Virus record (IMG/VR): IMGVR_UViG_3300037993_001242
Location: 96,001 to 160,000 of that record
Strand: one strand, 5' to 3'
DNA: 64,000 nucleotides
Origin: a virus
Part shown: piece after piece, positions 41,741-47,638 of the stretch
Layout of the letters: each line of letters starts with the position of its first letter
How positions within the stretch are numbered: position 1 is the first letter of the stretch
The notes under the pieces: model-generated
What the model was told of the DNA's origin: nothing
The model's input: the letters and a program-made list of their open reading frames with translations, nothing else
The model's database searches: none
Translations under genes and position numbers: made by a program

Positions 41741-42853
41741 GTGATCGCTGAAACCATCGTCCGCGCTTTGCTGGAAGAAGTTGAAGACCAGCACCGCTTT
41801 GTGACCGTCGTCGTCCTGCGCAACCCGGACGACCCGGAAGTCCTGTTGGTGCAGCGCAAAAATCCGCCGGAAGCAGGCAAGTGGGGCGCGCCGGGCGGCC
41901 ATGCCAATGAAGGCGAAGCGCTTACGGACGCAGCCAAGCGCGAACTTAAAGAAGAAACGGGTATTGAGGCCGCCCAACTTCATTACTTTGACCGCGTATT
42001 CATCCCGGAACGGGATGCCTTCGACAACTTCTACTGGACGGTTGTAGACGATGACGCCAGTGCCCGCCGGGGTGACGATGCCAAACACGTCAAATGGACG
42101 AAAGTGGCCGAGATCGGCGAACTGGCTTTCAACTGCCACGTACAGATCAAGGACGCGGCTGACCGGGCGTTCGCCATCGGCAAAATTGCCGAATCAAAAG
42201 CCGAGGGCAAGTATGGACGCAACGGCCTGCTGATCGTTTTCGAGGGCATCGACGGCGCGGGCAAAACCACGCAGGTCAGGAAACTGACCGGCTGGCTCGC
42301 CGAACGCGGCTACAAGGTCAAGACCACCAAATGGAATTCATCGGAAATCCTCAACGGCGCGCTGTACAAAGCCAAAAAGCACAAGGAACTTTCGCCCATC
42401 CTGTTCAGCCTGCTCCACGCTGCCGACCTCACGTGGCGCTACGAGAACATCGTCCGGCCCGCCCTCGACAAAGGCAAAGTCGTAATCTGCGACCGCTACT
42501 ATTACACCAGTTACGTCCGTGACAGCCTGCGCGGCGTCAACGATGCGATCCTCGATTACATTTACGAGGACTGGCGCAAACCCGACGTGGTCTTTTACTG
42601 CAAGGTTCCCATTCGCACAGCGGTCGAGCGCTTGCTGCGCGAAAAAGGCGTGTATTACTACAGCGCCGGGCGGGACATCGGCTACAAAGGCAGCAAAGAG
42701 GAGTGTGCCATGCAATACGAGGAGGACATGGAAAAGGTGTACAAGCGCCTTTTTGCCAAAGAACCCAGTGTGTCTGAGATTAGTACCGAACGCCCGATCA
42801 GCGAAATAGCTGATGAAATCAAGGCTATTTTGAAGAAAAAGTTCGATGTTTAA
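41741..42853 (+). CDS. tmk: LLE-leader Nudix hydrolase-thymidylate kinase fusion
   Basis: Nudix box GGHANEGEALTDAAKRELKEETGI; FEGIDGAGKTTQ, ICDRYYYTS. Confidence 0.88.
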   Translation: MIAETIVRALLEEVEDQHRFVTVVVLRNPDDPEVLLVQRKNPPEAGKWGAPGGHANEGEALTDAAKRELKEETGIEAAQLHYFDRVFIPERDAFDNFYWTVVDDDASARRGDDAKHVKWTKVAEIGELAFNCHVQIKDAADRAFAIGKIAESKAEGKYGRNGLLIVFEGIDGAGKTTQVRKLTGWLAERGYKVKTTKWNSSEILNGALYKAKKHKELSPILFSLLHAADLTWRYENIVRPALDKGKVVICDRYYYTSYVRDSLRGVNDAILDYIYEDWRKPDVVFYCKVPIRTAVERLLREKGVYYYSAGRDIGYKGSKEECAMQYEEDMEKVYKRLFAKEPSVSEISTERPISEIADEIKAILKKKFDV

Positions 42854-42908
42854 CTTTGTTAAAATTAGTTGTTGACAACCTTCCTGACTTATGGTTTATT
42901 TGGCGCAC

Positions 42909-43301
42909 ATGAAAGATACATAGGTTTCAAACGGTTCCTGTCTCCGGCTCTACGCGCTCGTGCGCACGGATGCAGGCATGTCTCCCGGCAAGACAGCTTC
43001 ACAGGCCGGTCACGCTTACCTCGGAGCGTTCATCGAGGCTTCCCGCAAAACTCCTGACGCCGTTGCTGTCTACAGCAGCGAGCATCCCACGCCCGGCACC
43101 AAGGTCTGTCTCAAAGGCAACCTGAACACCCTCCGGCGCGCTCAGGAAGAAGCCCAGAAGGCGGGTATTCCCCACTGCTTGATCATTGACTCAGGCTGCA
43201 AAAATTTCTTCAATGGTGAGCCGACCGTCACGGCGCTCGGATTTGGCCCGGCCACTGAAGAACAACTCACACCGTTTTTAAGGAGACTTCAAGTTTTATG
43301 A
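42909..43301 (+). CDS. pth2: Peptidyl-tRNA hydrolase PTH2 family, in-frame TAG at codon 5
   Basis: RLYALVRTDAGMSPGKTASQAGHA, KVCLKG, IIDSG, TVTALGFGP; ATG AAA GAT ACA TAG at 42909. Confidence 0.8.
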
Positions 43302-43308
43302 ACAATTT

Positions 43309-43454
43309 GAGCAAGTGGCAGAATGGGACAATGCAGACCACGGAGAAAACTACGGCTAACAACCGAGACGGCGAAAGTATACGCGTGAAATCGCTGGAAC
43401 AACGTGAAATCCTAACCGTGCGACTTGGTGGTTCGACTCCACCCTTGCTCACCA
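43309..43454 (+). ncRNA. tRNA-like RNA with greatly expanded anticodon region
   Basis: Acceptor GAGCAAG/CTTGCTC-ACCA, D-arm-like GCAGAATGGGACAATGC, T arm GGTGG-TTCGACT-CCACC; 146 nt. Confidence 0.7.
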
Positions 43455-43460
43455 ATTTAC

Positions 43461-43599
43461 GGGGTGCATTACACACAGAGGAAACTGGCCCTTGGGGTAA
43501 AAGCGCAGACCAGAGAGAACGTGTGGGAAGTAGCATTATGGCAATGCCGCAGTACGCAAGTGCTGTGCTAAGTGGGTTCGATCCCCACCCACCCCGCCA
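43461..43599 (+). ncRNA. tRNA-like RNA with non-canonical core
   Basis: GGGGTG/CACCCC-GCCA ends, T arm GTGGG-TTCGATC-CCCAC, GCAA-capped hairpin; 139 nt. Confidence 0.6.
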
Positions 43600-43606
43600 A
43601 TTTAAT

Positions 43607-43686
43607 GCGGAGGTAGCTCAGTTGGCAGAGCGCGTGGAGCCTTCACAGGTTTCACGAGGTCGGACGTTCGATCCGTTCCCTCCGCG
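43607..43686 (+). tRNA. Atypical tRNA with extended anticodon arm (possible UCA), no encoded CCA
   Basis: GCGGAGG/CCTCCGC, D arm GCTC-AGTTGGCA-GAGC, 24-nt anticodon arm with central CTTCACA, T arm GGACG-TTCGATC-CGTTC. Confidence 0.7.
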
Positions 43687-43699
43687 ACACTTACAAACA

Positions 43700-44191
43700 T
43701 CACAACAGTCCGAGACTTTTATTTGTGACAGCCATCTTACCAAATATGCGCACAGATTCCTCGTCAAAGACAGCCGCAGCTTCCTGCGGCGTTGCATGGT
43801 ATCCAAAATTTTTACGGCCATTGTTGATATAGATCACAGCGCGCCAAGGCCGTTTGCGATTTCCACGAGGATCAAGTTCAACACCTTTGAAGAAACTCTT
43901 ACTGCTGCGCACAACCAGACATTGTCGCCTACTCTTGAGATTGCAGCGCATGTGACTAAAACCAACGTTGTTGAGATCGAAAAACAGTTCGATGGCGTTT
44001 GGTTCGTGCAGCCACGGTTTAACATGATCAATCGTAAAATCATTCACGGAAGCAATCAATTTTCCACAGCGTATACATGTAGCCATACCGGCTTTTACTG
44101 CCAGCATATAAAGCAACATTTTCCGCAAACGATTACTGGCCGTACCAACTGACATGCCCAACTGCCTTGATTTTTCAGCATTTTTATCCAT
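43700..44191 (-). mobile_element. HNH-AP2 homing endonuclease gene
   Basis: CIRCG...TIDHVKP...HMRCN, then KGV...WRAVI...FGYHATPQEAAAVFD (AP2). Confidence 0.85.
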
Positions 44192-44215: not shown

Positions 44216-44536
44216 ATGAAATTCACATCCAAAGACGAATACTTACGCTGGCGTTCCGAGTGGAAAGCCAATTACCAAACCCTCAGCCAGCAAATCCGAG
44301 ACGTTAAATTCGCCCGGTGGTTCGAGGATTCACGGCGCGGCGGTGTCAAGATGAACGCGGCGCAGACCCAGCGCTACGAGGCCATCGCCAAAGCGCACAA
44401 GACCCAGTGGGGCTTCTTCCCCAACCATGCGCTCAAACAGCTTCGGGACAAGGCCACAGCCCTGCTCGCCGAGCGCGTTGCCTCGAAGATCGCGGCGCAA
44501 GAGTGCTATCAGGCTCGCCAACTGCACCCGGCCTGA
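44216..44536 (+). CDS. Hypothetical protein
   Basis: MKFTSKDEYLRWRSEWKANY. Confidence 0.6.
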   Translation: MKFTSKDEYLRWRSEWKANYQTLSQQIRDVKFARWFEDSRRGGVKMNAAQTQRYEAIAKAHKTQWGFFPNHALKQLRDKATALLAERVASKIAAQECYQARQLHPA

Positions 44537-45790
44537 TCAGACGTGCAGAAACGTACGGCTGCCCGGCGGCTTGACCGCGTCATGGGCAGCCGTGTTGTAT
44601 TCAAGTGCGTGACGCGGTAACTCAAATTCAAATCCGCGATTCACCGCCGCTTGATTATCAAACGACAGTTGCACCCAAGTCACAGGGCCGTTGGGTTTTA
44701 GACCAAACTGATTAAGCGCCTTATTGACCTTGATTTTGGCTCCCCGTGCTGTGGCGTAAACATGGCCGTATACACGCCATTTATTTTCGTGGCGACAGAC
44801 GCCGATAGCGCGCAACCCAACACTGTCCATAGCCCACATGAGCTTGTCGACTCTGGCCTTGGTCTCGAATGTGGTTTTAATAAATTGACGCGGATCAACG
44901 GCGTCAGGGTCTAAAGTTTCAGTCACGCGTTTGTTTGTTTCCAGCCACAACGCCATGGCTACATCCATGGCTGTACTATATGTTTTACCTTTGAAAATTT
45001 TTGTTGGAACGCCCGTAGCGTCAATAACCCGCCATTTACCAGACTTGTTCAGACCTATTTTACCAAGGCCATTATTCCAGAGTGCATGTTCATCGGTTAA
45101 GACCGCGTACCAGTCAGCATATTTAGCAAACCTGAAATCTGGCGTTGTTAGGGTGTACGCCTTGGGATCAACGGCATCTGGATCAAGTGCCTCTTTGATG
45201 CTGAATTCAGCTATCAATTGATCAAGGCGCACTCCCAGCAATGCGCGCTCAACGTATTTGGAACTTGTAAGCTCCCATCTGCCATTCTCACTTGTGTACA
45301 CTTGCACAGTAAGTTCATCGAGCGGCTCCCCCGCACCGAAATGGCTGTGGTTGGGCCAGACAATCAACTGATAATTGCCTATGTTTTTAAAGTAGAAACC
45401 CGGAGAATCTTGTCTCGATGCTTCCAGCGCAAATCCGCGTTCACCCAGCGTCTTCAGCCAGTTAAAGGTGCTGCGCGCATAATGACGAGGATCAACATCG
45501 TCAGGATCAGCTTCACGCAGCGCCATCAGCTTGTGTATACGCTGGGCGGCTGCCTCAGCAAATTGAGCGTGCCGGACGCGAATGGTGGTGATGGCGTAGC
45601 CCTGCTTACGTGCCTCCTGCCGGGCCTGTATGGACGCCTTGCCCTTGTTTTCAGCGTGGCCCGTGGCCAGCGCGTGGGTTTCGTCGGGCAGCGGCAGCAG
45701 CGACCAATACCAGATGTGGCTCCCGTTTATTGGAGCGGGCCGGTATTCAAGGGCGGCATACCTGCGTTGAAACAAGGCGTTAGCGTTCAC
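44537..45790 (-). CDS. Multi-module protein with three internal E-x-DPD junctions
   Basis: READPDDVDPRHY, KEALDPDAVDPKAY, TETLDPDAVDPRQF; GTAGTTA 4 nt upstream. Confidence 0.75.
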   Translation of the reverse strand: MNANALFQRRYAALEYRPAPINGSHIWYWSLLPLPDETHALATGHAENKGKASIQARQEARKQGYAITTIRVRHAQFAEAAAQRIHKLMALREADPDDVDPRHYARSTFNWLKTLGERGFALEASRQDSPGFYFKNIGNYQLIVWPNHSHFGAGEPLDELTVQVYTSENGRWELTSSKYVERALLGVRLDQLIAEFSIKEALDPDAVDPKAYTLTTPDFRFAKYADWYAVLTDEHALWNNGLGKIGLNKSGKWRVIDATGVPTKIFKGKTYSTAMDVAMALWLETNKRVTETLDPDAVDPRQFIKTTFETKARVDKLMWAMDSVGLRAIGVCRHENKWRVYGHVYATARGAKIKVNKALNQFGLKPNGPVTWVQLSFDNQAAVNRGFEFELPRHALEYNTAAHDAVKPPGSRTFLHV

Positions 45791-47584: not shown

Positions 47585-47638
47585 ACCAGTAATGTATACG
47601 GGTATGACAATAATGTCAATAGAAAAATTTAATCGCCT

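What the first reader, a model, noticed from the sequence alone, without database searches (positions are those of the whole stretch)
42872..43301. pth2 needs amber read-through at codon 5
Seen: TTGACA at 42872, then ATG(42909) AAA GAT ACA TAG GTT ... CGG CTC TAC GCG CTC GTG CGC ACG GAT. No ATG, GTG or TTG lies between the TAG and the GTG at 42960. Starting at 42960 would delete RLYAL, the equivalent of the first core beta-strand of PTH2 (KQVIVVRxDL). Inference: peptidyl-tRNA hydrolase is made only when the phage tRNA(CUA) is active. That couples suppression to recycling of dropped-off peptidyl-tRNAs. The MKDT-stop mini-ORF would itself be a minigene-type source of peptidyl-tRNA.
Basis: partly seen in the sequence, partly recalled or inferred. 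Interest (0 to 1): 0.85.

Follow-up and report, generated by a model that had tools for sequence, protein, structure and literature searches.

The report
Suppressor-tRNA-gated phage Pth2 gene
A giant phage that otherwise uses the normal genetic code keeps a UAG stop as the fifth codon of a small peptidyl-tRNA-hydrolase-like gene and carries its own UAG-reading tRNA; dozens of distant phages share this pairing, so the enzyme is probably made only while that tRNA overrides the stop.

Summary
ATG 42909, AAA GAT ACA, TAG 42921, then 12 codons with no start codon, then GTG 42960. These 12 codons encode most of strand beta1 of a PTH2 fold.

The TAG is not an error. Relatives at 95, 85 and 68% protein identity, from independent samples, keep it. 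The codons behind it change synonymously.

All 43 non-redundant phage loci of this Pth2 clade that I examined have an in-frame stop a few codons after an in-frame start. The stop type follows the phage's own suppressor tRNA: TAG with CUA, TGA with UCA, TAA with UUA. No mismatch was seen.

This 199-kb phage is not TAG-recoded, and pth2 is the only gene I could find that needs the tRNA(CUA) at 15560-15633.

New for this window:
- The tRNA lies 27 kb away, and the closest relatives have the same layout.
- The gene starts on a near-leaderless promoter.
- An unknown helical protein (44216-44536) follows pth2 in 37 of 49 loci.

Nothing is experimental. The amino acid inserted and the purpose of the gate are unknown. 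This scan has noted the same cassette on other DNA many times. I found no paper describing it.

The parts
15560..15633 (-). Suppressor tRNA with anticodon CUA. 74 nt, encoded CCA, discriminator G73, 4-nt variable loop.
   Evidence: ARAGORN. Rfam RF00005 at 61.5 bits. Sequence read. Conserved with its promoter in the closest relatives, which carry it about 29 kb from their TAG-pth2 on the same contigs.
15643..15671 (-). Sigma-70-like promoter of the tRNA: TTGACA, 17 nt, AATAAT. It ends 9 nt before the tRNA 5' end.
   Evidence: Read. The TTGACA and the 17-nt spacer are identical in relatives L157-L159; their -10 hexamer reads AATAGT. Function is inferred from the consensus only.
42872..42900 (+). 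Promoter-like site of pth2: TTGACA, 17 nt, then TGG-TTTATT (extended -10 type). It ends 8 nt before the ATG.
   Evidence: Read. The hexamers and spacing are conserved in L002-L005, where the ATG lies 6 nt after the -10. The tool's strict consensus scan did not list it, because it requires an A at position 2 of the -10. It belongs to a genome-wide set in which 9 of 19 such sites have an ATG 6-8 nt after the -10.
42909..42923 (+). Leader of the gene: ATG AAA GAT ACA (MKDT) followed by the gating UAG at 42921-42923. The next base is G.
   Evidence: MKDT-TAG is identical in L002-L004. L005 has MTNFT-TAG, and L006 has MKHT-TAG plus a second TAG. The base after the stop is a purine in 41 of 43 loci.
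42909..43301 (+). Pth2-like coding sequence, 130 codons if the UAG at codon 5 is read as a residue. Strand beta1 is residues 13-19. The GK and DSG motifs are at K28 and D94.
   Evidence: Pfam PF01981 at 68.4 bits. Fold pLDDT 89.5. Foldseek best match is archaeal Pth2 2zv3, TM-score 0.90 by target length, rmsd 1.9. The profile matches 2zv3 at E 1e-19, with beta1 aligned to residues 2-8 of the archaeal enzyme.
44216..44536 (+). Conserved partner gene of unknown function, 106 aa, beginning MKFTSKDEYLRWRSEWKANY. It is the gene after pth2 in most loci of the clade.
   Evidence: Present next to pth2 in 37 of 49 loci. No Pfam, PHROG or Atlas match. Confident three-helix model, pLDDT 94, with no significant PDB match.

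Best explanation
The gene at 42909-43301 encodes a PTH2-fold ester hydrolase. Making it requires a ribosome to read the UAG at codon 5 as a sense codon.

Proposed sequence of events:
1. Transcription from the TTGACA-17-TGGTTTATT promoter gives an mRNA that starts at or 2 nt before the AUG.
2. The ribosome translates M-K-D-T and meets UAG-G.
3. If release factor 1 wins, a tetrapeptide is released and no enzyme is made.
4. If the phage's own tRNA(CUA) (15560-15633, own promoter) is present and charged, it inserts a residue. The ribosome then goes on to make the complete 130-aa protein, including strand beta1.

Output of the enzyme therefore follows the level of amber suppression in the infected cell.

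Shown here:
- the anatomy of the gene;
- the fold and motifs of the protein;
- conservation of the stop across the clade;
- co-variation of stop type with the suppressor anticodon;
- the absence of other clear UAG-dependent genes in this genome.

Inferred:
- that the tRNA is expressed and charged;
- that read-through is how the protein is made;
- the leaderless start;
- the purpose.

My preferred purpose is feed-forward. The hydrolase is wanted only when stop codons are being overridden, to clear tRNA esters produced by aberrant termination. Fitting this, the genome also carries a tmRNA and a release-factor-like GGQ protein. A self-limiting feedback on the suppressor is the main alternative.
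For: 1. The TAG is real and old. Relatives at 95% (L002-4), 85% (L005) and 68% (L006/7) protein identity come from independent metagenomes. All have an in-frame TAG at the same place.

2. The stretch between TAG and GTG 42960 is translated. Window against L002 shows 4 synonymous and 1 non-synonymous codon change. Window against L005 shows 2 synonymous changes, 1 non-synonymous change and one in-frame 3-nt insertion.

3. That stretch is needed. Beta1 is residues 13-19 with pLDDT about 96. It aligns to the first strand of solved Pth2 structures.

4. The feature is clade-wide. All 43 non-redundant phage loci have the stop, and 38 have no ATG/GTG/TTG between stop and beta1. Three homologs that gene callers had annotated as full length also carry upstream in-frame stops.

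5. Stop and anticodon co-vary.
- L017 has TAA twice. The only tRNA on its 203-kb contig is UUA, directly upstream.
- L024, L026 and L027 have TGA, with tRNA(UCA) within 1-2.5 kb.
- Atu_ph07 has TGA at codon 7 and a published tRNA(UCA) (PMC6102473).
- About 30 TAG loci have tRNA(CUA) on the same locus or contig. Most sit just upstream of pth2 on the same strand.
- No mismatched pair was seen. A rough chance estimate for the five non-TAG matches is 9e-6.

6. The closest relatives carry the same tRNA(CUA) and promoter, about 29 kb from their TAG-pth2 on the same contigs.

7. The context fits suppression. The base after the gating stop is a purine in 41 of 43 loci. This genome's 34 ordinary terminal TAGs are followed by a pyrimidine in 25 cases (Fisher p 1e-10). 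From my own knowledge, a 3' purine favours tRNA suppression in E. coli (Bossi 1983; Miller and Albertini 1983).

8. The ATG is a credible start. Nine of 19 TTGAC[AT]-N16-18-T[AT]NN[AT]T sites in this genome have an ATG 6-8 nt after the -10 (p 7e-8). Only 29 of 250 crude gene calls have a Shine-Dalgarno 4-mer. In cultured phage Phosso the equivalent ATG has AGGAG 7 nt upstream.
Against: - Nothing is experimental. Expression, processing, charging and the identity of the inserted residue are all unknown. The tRNA is at most 72% identical to any of the phage's other 39 tRNAs. Its discriminator base differs between the window (G) and its closest relatives (A).
- TAG ends about 14% of this phage's own genes (34 of 250 crude calls). 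An efficient suppressor would therefore be costly.
- One complete 543-kb genome (L023) has two TAG-gated copies but no plain tRNA(CUA) among 66 tRNAs. It has only an odd 84-nt tRNA that ARAGORN calls 'ctta'.
- In L012, L013 and L015 the stop lies 11-23 nt after the tRNA's CCA end with no start codon between them. The start-then-read-through model does not obviously fit those loci.
- In 5 of 43 loci a GTG lies between the stop and beta1.
- No read-through-stimulating RNA structure is detectable after the TAG (z 0.23).
Confidence: 0.78

Rival explanations
1. The MKDT-stop frame is a separate upstream mini-ORF. The hydrolase starts downstream, at GTG 42960 or ATG 42978, as gene callers annotate it, either independently or by re-initiation after termination.
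For: Gene callers start the closest homologs at the internal Met (107 aa). In-frame GTG 42960 and ATG 42978 exist. In 5 of 43 loci a GTG lies between the stop and beta1.
Against: - Such products would lack most or all of strand beta1, which is confidently modelled and aligned to solved Pth2.
- The codons before 42960 evolve under protein-level constraint.
- 38 of 43 loci offer no canonical start before beta1.
- The upstream ATG is in the same frame in 35 of 43 loci, which re-initiation would not require.
- The model does not explain why the stop type follows the tRNA anticodon.
- No Shine-Dalgarno sequence precedes 42960 or 42978.
Confidence: 0.07
2. [quoted passage not shown] The neighbouring suppressor tRNA serves other purposes.
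For: Low-level natural read-through of UAG and UGA is known in bacteria (my own knowledge). In this window the tRNA is 27 kb away on the other strand. L023 lacks a plain tRNA(CUA).
Against: - The stop type matches the phage suppressor anticodon in every case I could score, including TGA/UCA and TAA/UUA.
- Double stops (L006, L009, L010, L017, L019, L154) would make unaided read-through vanishingly rare.
- In L017 the ochre suppressor is the only tRNA on the contig and sits beside the gene.
Confidence: 0.07
3. The stop is passed without a tRNA reading it, for example by ribosome hopping, by resumption after peptidyl-tRNA drop-off, or by initiation at the stop or at a non-canonical codon next to it.
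For: In L012, L013 and L015 no start codon lies between the tRNA 3' end and the stop. The motif TTY-ACG-stop-GTT recurs around the stop. Thr or Leu precedes the stop in 32 of 43 loci.
Against: - No take-off and landing repeat is visible, and no RNA structure is detectable after the stop.
- The model does not predict stop and anticodon co-variation.
- The tRNA has G1-C72 and lacks the three G-C pairs of initiator anticodon stems, so it looks like an elongator.
Confidence: 0.05
4. The gene is a pseudogene, or the TAG is an assembly error.
For: It is a single in-frame stop in a metagenome-derived record.
Against: The same stop is found in independent assemblies of relatives and across the whole clade, with purifying selection on both sides.
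Confidence: 0.01

Closest known systems
Stop-codon recoding in phages with phage-encoded suppressor tRNAs (TAG or TGA read as sense; Borges et al., bioRxiv 10.1101/2021.08.26.457843)
   Same: A phage-encoded suppressor tRNA lets in-frame stops in phage genes be translated in a standard-code host. The in-frame stop is proposed to act as a post-transcriptional gate.
   Different: Recoded phages have in-frame stops in 26-71% of genes, enriched in late and lysis genes. Here the genome uses the standard code and a single gene carries the stop. That paper does not contain the word 'hydrolase'. The gated gene is itself a translation factor-like enzyme, usually linked to the tRNA as a cassette.
prfB (release factor 2) autoregulation through an in-frame UGA
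   Same: A translation-termination-related gene carries an early in-frame stop. Its output therefore reports how efficiently that stop is being recognised.
   Different: prfB needs a +1 frameshift, and its product acts directly on the same stop codon (my own knowledge). Here the frame is unchanged, passage needs a dedicated tRNA, and no feedback of the product on the stop has been shown.
Archaeal and eukaryotic peptidyl-tRNA hydrolase 2 (PF01981; PDB 2zv3, 1wn2, 1xty, 1q7s)
   Same: Same fold (TM-score 0.90 by target length, rmsd 1.9 A). Same length, and the same GK...Q..H and D-[AS]-G motif positions.
   Different: About 32% identity. It scores below NCBI's equivalog cut-offs (60.8 against 126; 51.1 against 82). 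It has clade-specific motifs (QAGHAYLG, PGTKVCL, DSGCxNFFNGEPT) and an added N-terminal leader holding the stop. Canonical phage PTH2, as in Xoo-sp13, has no stop.
Lambda bar minigenes and Pth (rap) sensitivity
   Same: A very short ORF ending in a stop, linked to peptidyl-tRNA hydrolase biology.
   Different: bar minigenes poison Pth-deficient cells by sequestering tRNA (my own knowledge). Here the short frame is in frame with, and continuous with, the hydrolase gene itself. No toxicity or drop-off was tested.
Programmed stop-codon read-through in viruses (Q-beta A1 protein, retroviral gag-pol)
   Same: A fraction of ribosomes reads a stop as sense to make a longer protein.
   Different: Those cases use host near-cognate tRNAs and produce C-terminal extensions of a functional shorter protein.

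Membership tests
PTH2 (Pfam PF01981) | Sequence match to the family model above the curated cut-off | tested here: met
   68.4 bits against a cut-off of 23; residues 13-130 match model positions 2-115 of 115.
PTH2 (Pfam PF01981) | The PTH2 alpha/beta fold with beta1 as a core strand | tested here: met
   Model pLDDT 89.5. Foldseek top ten hits are all Pth2 structures; the best is 2zv3 with TM-score 0.90 by target length, rmsd 1.9.
PTH2 (Pfam PF01981) | Conserved active-site positions: Lys of the GK motif and Asp of the D-A/S-G motif (residue roles recalled from the S. solfataricus Pth2 study) | tested here: met
   K28, Q32, H35, D94 and G96 are invariant in 26 homologs. They align to the GKGK and DAG motifs of 2zv3.
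Archaeal Pth2 equivalog (NCBIfam NF003314 / TIGR00283) | Score above the equivalog cut-off, meaning the same function can be assumed | tested here: not met
   60.8 against 126 bits, and 51.1 against 82 bits. It is a divergent clade, and its substrate is not established.
PTH2 (enzyme) | Hydrolysis of the ester bond of peptidyl- or N-acyl-aminoacyl-tRNA | not testable with these tools
   Needs a biochemical assay.
Nonsense-suppressor tRNA | Cloverleaf tRNA with an anticodon complementary to a stop codon in a 7-nt loop with U33 | tested here: met
   ARAGORN reports anticodon cta. Rfam 61.5 bits. The loop reads CU-CUA-AA.
Nonsense-suppressor tRNA | Expressed, aminoacylated and active on the ribosome | not testable with these tools
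Amino-acid identity is not inferable.
Stop-codon-recoded phage (code 15-like) | Many genes interrupted by the reassigned stop; longer ORFs when it is read as sense | tested here: not met
   - The longest ORFs are nearly unchanged by TAG reassignment.
- Internal TAGs with coding potential on both sides number 5, against 7 for TAA and 9 for TGA. The five are gene junctions or shadow frames.
- TAG ends 34 of 250 crude gene calls.
Suppressor-tRNA / gated-Pth2 cassette (as seen in this scan; unpublished) | In-frame stop within the first ~40 codons, upstream of beta1, with a cognate suppressor tRNA in the same genome | tested here: met
   TAG at codon 5. tRNA(CUA) 27 kb away. The closest relatives have the same layout.
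Suppressor-tRNA / gated-Pth2 cassette (as seen in this scan; unpublished) | tRNA directly upstream of pth2 on the same strand | tested here: not met
   In this lineage the tRNA is on the opposite strand, 27 kb away. It is adjacent in L006 and about 16 other loci.
prfB-type autoregulation | The product acts on its own in-frame stop, and a frameshift is needed | tested here: not met
   No frameshift is needed; the frame is continuous. Feedback of the product on the stop is untested.

The most novel reading that the evidence does not exclude
The suppressor tRNA, the stop-gated Pth2-like hydrolase and the conserved helical protein form one self-contained regulatory module. The hydrolase is made in proportion to read-through. 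It then acts back on the suppressor's own aminoacyl- or peptidyl-tRNA, or on the products of read-through. The module would thereby sense and limit stop-codon suppression in the infected cell. This would be a tRNA-based homeostat analogous in logic to prfB autoregulation. It would explain why standard-code phages carry suppressor tRNAs with no other evident client gene.
Probability: 0.2. Interest if true: 0.9.

Novelty: new variant of a known kind. Interest (0 to 1): 0.8.

Why it matters
Suppressor tRNAs are common in large phages that otherwise use the standard code, and published genome papers call their role unknown. This gene gives such a tRNA a concrete, conserved client.

The client is itself a translation-quality-control-type enzyme, which points to deliberate management of stop-codon read-through during infection.

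The pairing corrects the annotation of a whole protein family. Gene callers truncate it at an internal Met or at a GTG behind the stop.

It also offers a natural reporter of suppression, namely the short leader plus stop. Two cultured phages carry the same arrangement and make it testable: Atu_ph07 (TGA with tRNA-UCA) and Sinorhizobium phage Phosso (TAG with tRNA-CUA).

Tried and rejected
- Megablast of the locus against cultured phages: no match.
- The search for related loci with the single protein: nothing confirmed. The alignment query worked.
- Searching the records behind L002-L006 directly: not held. I worked around this through the tRNA's neighbouring protein.
- Exact-pattern scan of viral contigs for this tRNA: no hit.
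- Global TAG recoding of this genome: rejected.
- Other genes of this genome with a start, a few codons, TAG and then a startless frame: none convincing besides pth2.
- Amino-acid identity of the tRNA from similarity to the phage's other 39 tRNAs: inconclusive, best 72%.
- RNA structure after the TAG that might stimulate read-through: none (z 0.23).
- Predicted complex of Pth2 (post-stop part) with the conserved helical partner: no verdict, score 0.01 against a mark of 0.32. This is not evidence either way.
- Fold search of the partner in the PDB: no significant match. Atlas feature search: nothing. Pfam and PHROGs: nothing.
- A third 'conserved family' in the locus clustering was the antisense shadow of pth2.
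- Literature: four full-text searches found no paper linking PTH2 to suppressor tRNAs or an in-frame stop.

Full report
**What is there**

The window is bases 96001-160000 of a 199-kb IMG/VR phage record, estimated 82% complete. The record has about 53% G+C, 40 tRNA genes and a tmRNA.

At the flagged site the sequence reads exactly as described:
- TTGACA at 42872-42877.
- ATG 42909, then AAA GAT ACA, then TAG 42921.
- Twelve codons with no ATG, GTG or TTG in frame.
- GTG 42960, ATG 42978 (codon 24), TGA stop at 43299-43301.

Read through the TAG, the frame gives a 130-aa protein. It matches Pfam PTH2 over residues 13-130, at 68.4 bits against a cut-off of 23.

An AlphaFold2 model built on 26 homologs is confident (pLDDT 89.5). 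It places strand beta1 at residues 13-19 and leaves residues 1-8 disordered. Its best structural matches are archaeal Pth2 structures; 2zv3 gives TM-score 0.90 by target length and rmsd 1.9 A. The family profile aligns beta1 to residues 2-8 of that 115-aa enzyme.

A start at 42960 or 42978 would therefore delete a core strand.

**The stop is real and the codons behind it are translated**

The closest homologs in a 5.8-billion-protein collection share 95, 85, 75 and 68% identity. All are annotated from the internal Met, at 107 aa. I fetched DNA for the 95, 85 and 68% relatives.

Their DNA comes from independent metagenomes and shows why. Each has an in-frame TAG behind a short in-frame start:
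- L002-4: MKDT-TAG.
- L005: MTNFT-TAG.
- L006: MKHT-TAG, plus a second TAG.

Between the TAG and GTG 42960, the window and L002 differ by four synonymous and one non-synonymous codon change. The window and L005 differ by two synonymous changes, one non-synonymous change and an in-frame 3-nt insertion. That is the signature of a translated sequence. It rules out a sequencing error or a pseudogene.

**The feature is clade-wide and tracks the suppressor tRNA**

A profile search of viral contigs returned 47 loci. In all 43 non-redundant members of this clade, an in-frame stop lies 5-40 codons upstream of beta1:
- 38 have no canonical start between stop and beta1.
- 35 have an in-frame ATG within 15 codons upstream (p 5e-17 against chance).
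- Three more have two stops, with the ATG before the first.

Three homologs that gene callers had annotated as full length also carry upstream in-frame stops.

The stop is TAG in 39 loci, TGA in 3 and TAA in 1. The non-TAG cases are the decisive ones:
- L017 has two TAA codons. The only tRNA on its 203-kb contig is tRNA(UUA), directly upstream.
- L024, L026 and L027 have TGA, with tRNA(UCA) within 1-2.5 kb.
- The cultured Agrobacterium phage Atu_ph07 has ATG ATT GGC GAA CAC TTT TGA in front of its copy, which is annotated from the internal Met. Its genome paper reports a tRNA(UCA) of unknown purpose (PMC6102473).

About 30 TAG loci have tRNA(CUA) on the same locus or contig:
- Most have it directly upstream on the same strand.
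- Others have it elsewhere on the contig: L011, L021, L022, L029, L040, L045.
- Also Phosso, and L154 and L156.

I saw no mismatched pair.

The tRNA(CUA) was missing or unclear in two kinds of case. Some contigs are fragments (L008, L010, L025, L044). One is a complete 543-kb genome, L023, whose 66 tRNAs include no plain CUA but one odd 84-nt tRNA.

Canonical phage PTH2 genes outside this clade have an ordinary start and no stop (Xoo-sp13, L051-54).

**This genome**

The phage is not TAG-recoded:
- Reading TAG as sense barely changes the longest ORFs.
- TAGs with coding potential on both sides are no commoner than TAA or TGA. The five found are gene junctions or shadow frames.
- TAG terminates 34 of 250 crude gene calls.

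A scan for genes built like pth2 (start, a few codons, TAG, startless frame) found nothing convincing besides pth2 itself. So pth2 is the only evident client of the tRNA(CUA) at 15560-15633.

That tRNA has its own TTGACA-17-AATAAT promoter. It lies 27 kb from pth2 on the other strand. The closest relatives carry the same tRNA and promoter about 29 kb from their gated pth2, on the same contigs. In the 68% relative L006 the tRNA is adjacent.

**How translation probably starts**

The ATG has no Shine-Dalgarno sequence. It sits 8 nt after a TGG-TTTATT extended -10 element, which is spaced 17 nt from the TTGACA. In L002 and L005 the gap is 6 nt.

The genome has a family of such sites, with consensus TTGACA-N16/17-TACATT. 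Nine of 19 have an ATG 6-8 nt after the -10 (p 7e-8). Only 29 of 250 gene calls have a Shine-Dalgarno 4-mer.

I therefore infer a leaderless or 2-nt-leader mRNA. This favours the 5'-terminal AUG and makes internal starts at 42960 or 42978 unlikely. In Phosso the equivalent ATG has a strong AGGAG.

**Context of the stop**

The base after the gating stop is a purine in 41 of 43 loci (G in this window). This genome's ordinary terminal TAGs are followed by a pyrimidine in 25 of 34 cases (Fisher p 1e-10).

From my own knowledge of E. coli work (Bossi 1983; Miller and Albertini 1983), a 3' purine favours tRNA suppression.

Thr or Leu precedes the stop in 32 of 43 loci. No stable RNA structure follows the TAG.

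**Mechanism and its limits**

The best-supported account is that the full-length enzyme is made only when the phage tRNA(CUA) outcompetes release factor 1 at codon 5. That the tRNA is made and charged, and with what, is inferred, not shown:
- It resembles none of the phage's other tRNAs.
- Its discriminator base differs between close relatives.

Why the enzyme is gated is open. Feed-forward clean-up of tRNA esters when stops are being overridden is my preferred reading. The same genome carries a tmRNA and a release-factor-like GGQ protein.

A negative feedback on the suppressor is the bolder alternative. The protein does not reach the equivalog cut-offs for archaeal Pth2, so its substrate may differ.

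**A conserved partner**

The gene after pth2 in 37 of 49 loci is a small protein with the N-terminal motif F-T-x-K/R-E-E-Y-L-x-W/Y-R-x-E/D-W-K/R-x-x-Y. Here it is at 44216-44536.
- It has no Pfam, PHROG or Atlas match.
- It folds confidently into three long helices.
- It has no significant PDB match.

**Novelty**

Four full-text searches found no paper linking PTH2 to suppressor tRNAs. The main survey of phage recoding does not mention a hydrolase.

Earlier notes of this scan describe the same cassette on many other genomes. I reproduced the co-variation independently before reading them.

What this window adds:
- a lineage in which the tRNA and the gene are unlinked;
- the leaderless start;
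- the termination-context contrast;
- the conserved partner.

Noticed in passing
window 43524-43596 and 43607-43686 (+); HNH gene 43700-44191 (-): Between pth2 and its conserved partner, the window carries two features that the 95% relative L002 lacks. One is a tRNA-like gene with an anticodon stem about 5 bp too long, a loop reading UUCACAG, and no CCA (Rfam tRNA 47.9 bits with lax filters). Before it lies a weaker tRNA-like stretch at 18 bits. The other is an HNH endonuclease gene on the opposite strand. L002 has only one 89-nt tRNA-like gene in a 108-bp gap. The 284-aa ORF 43298-44152 is probably spurious.
   Followed up: partly
L013 2148-2226, L014 2913-2992, L036 1944-2020, L015 2140-2230, L005 3513-3595, L002 3331-3419: Odd tRNA-like genes recur just downstream of pth2 in other phages. 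Some have 8-nt anticodon loops, which ARAGORN reports as 4-base anticodons gcaa and ggaa. Others have lengthened anticodon arms. The long stem shows compensatory changes between the window and L005 while the loop is not conserved. I did not test that.
   Followed up: partly
outside the window: genome 168699-169298 (+), locus L092 about 1215-1869: A release-factor-1-like gene lacks domain 1 and the PxT/SPF codon-recognition tripeptide but keeps GGQ. It is interrupted by one in-frame TGA (MNLVIEIRAAEGGDD...SKAGL-TGA-LEAVEI...GGQ). It matches RF1 residues 188-317. The genome has no tRNA(UCA).
   Followed up: partly
outside the window: genome 55346-55771 (-): A phage-encoded tmRNA lies within the tRNA island. 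Together with Pth2 and the GGQ protein it gives this phage a set of ribosome-rescue-type genes.
   Followed up: no
whole genome; in the window at 47619 (-) and 57291 (-): A family of TTGACA-N16/17-TACATT sites is followed by ATG after 6-8 nt, and Shine-Dalgarno motifs are rare (29 of 250 gene calls). This suggests that many genes of this phage are translated from leaderless mRNAs.
   Followed up: partly
L012 1472-1485, L013 1460-1485, L015 1466-1485: In these phages the gating TAG lies only 11-23 nt after the CCA end of the suppressor tRNA, with no start codon in between. The only in-frame starts lie inside or beyond the tRNA gene. How ribosomes reach the stop there is unexplained.
   Followed up: partly
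L023 (contig G010, 543 kb, complete); L148 523-606 (-): This genome has two TAG-gated pth2 copies but no plain tRNA(CUA) among 66 tRNAs. It has one 84-nt tRNA with an unusual anticodon loop, which ARAGORN calls 'ctta'. It is the one complete genome that does not fit simply.
   Followed up: partly
window 41741-42853 (+): The gene directly upstream of pth2 is a fusion of a NUDIX hydrolase domain and a thymidylate kinase domain. It is conserved in L002-L005.
   Followed up: no
window 44537-45790 (-): A 417-aa ORF carries a repeated (E/A)-(L)-DPD-(A/D)-VDP-(K/R) motif between unrelated-looking segments. Another reader of this scan flagged the same motif (e1-5773292).
   Followed up: no
whole genome: Ordinary terminal TAG codons are followed mostly by T or C (25 of 34). 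TAA and TGA show no such bias. This may be an adaptation of true terminators to the resident amber suppressor.
   Followed up: partly
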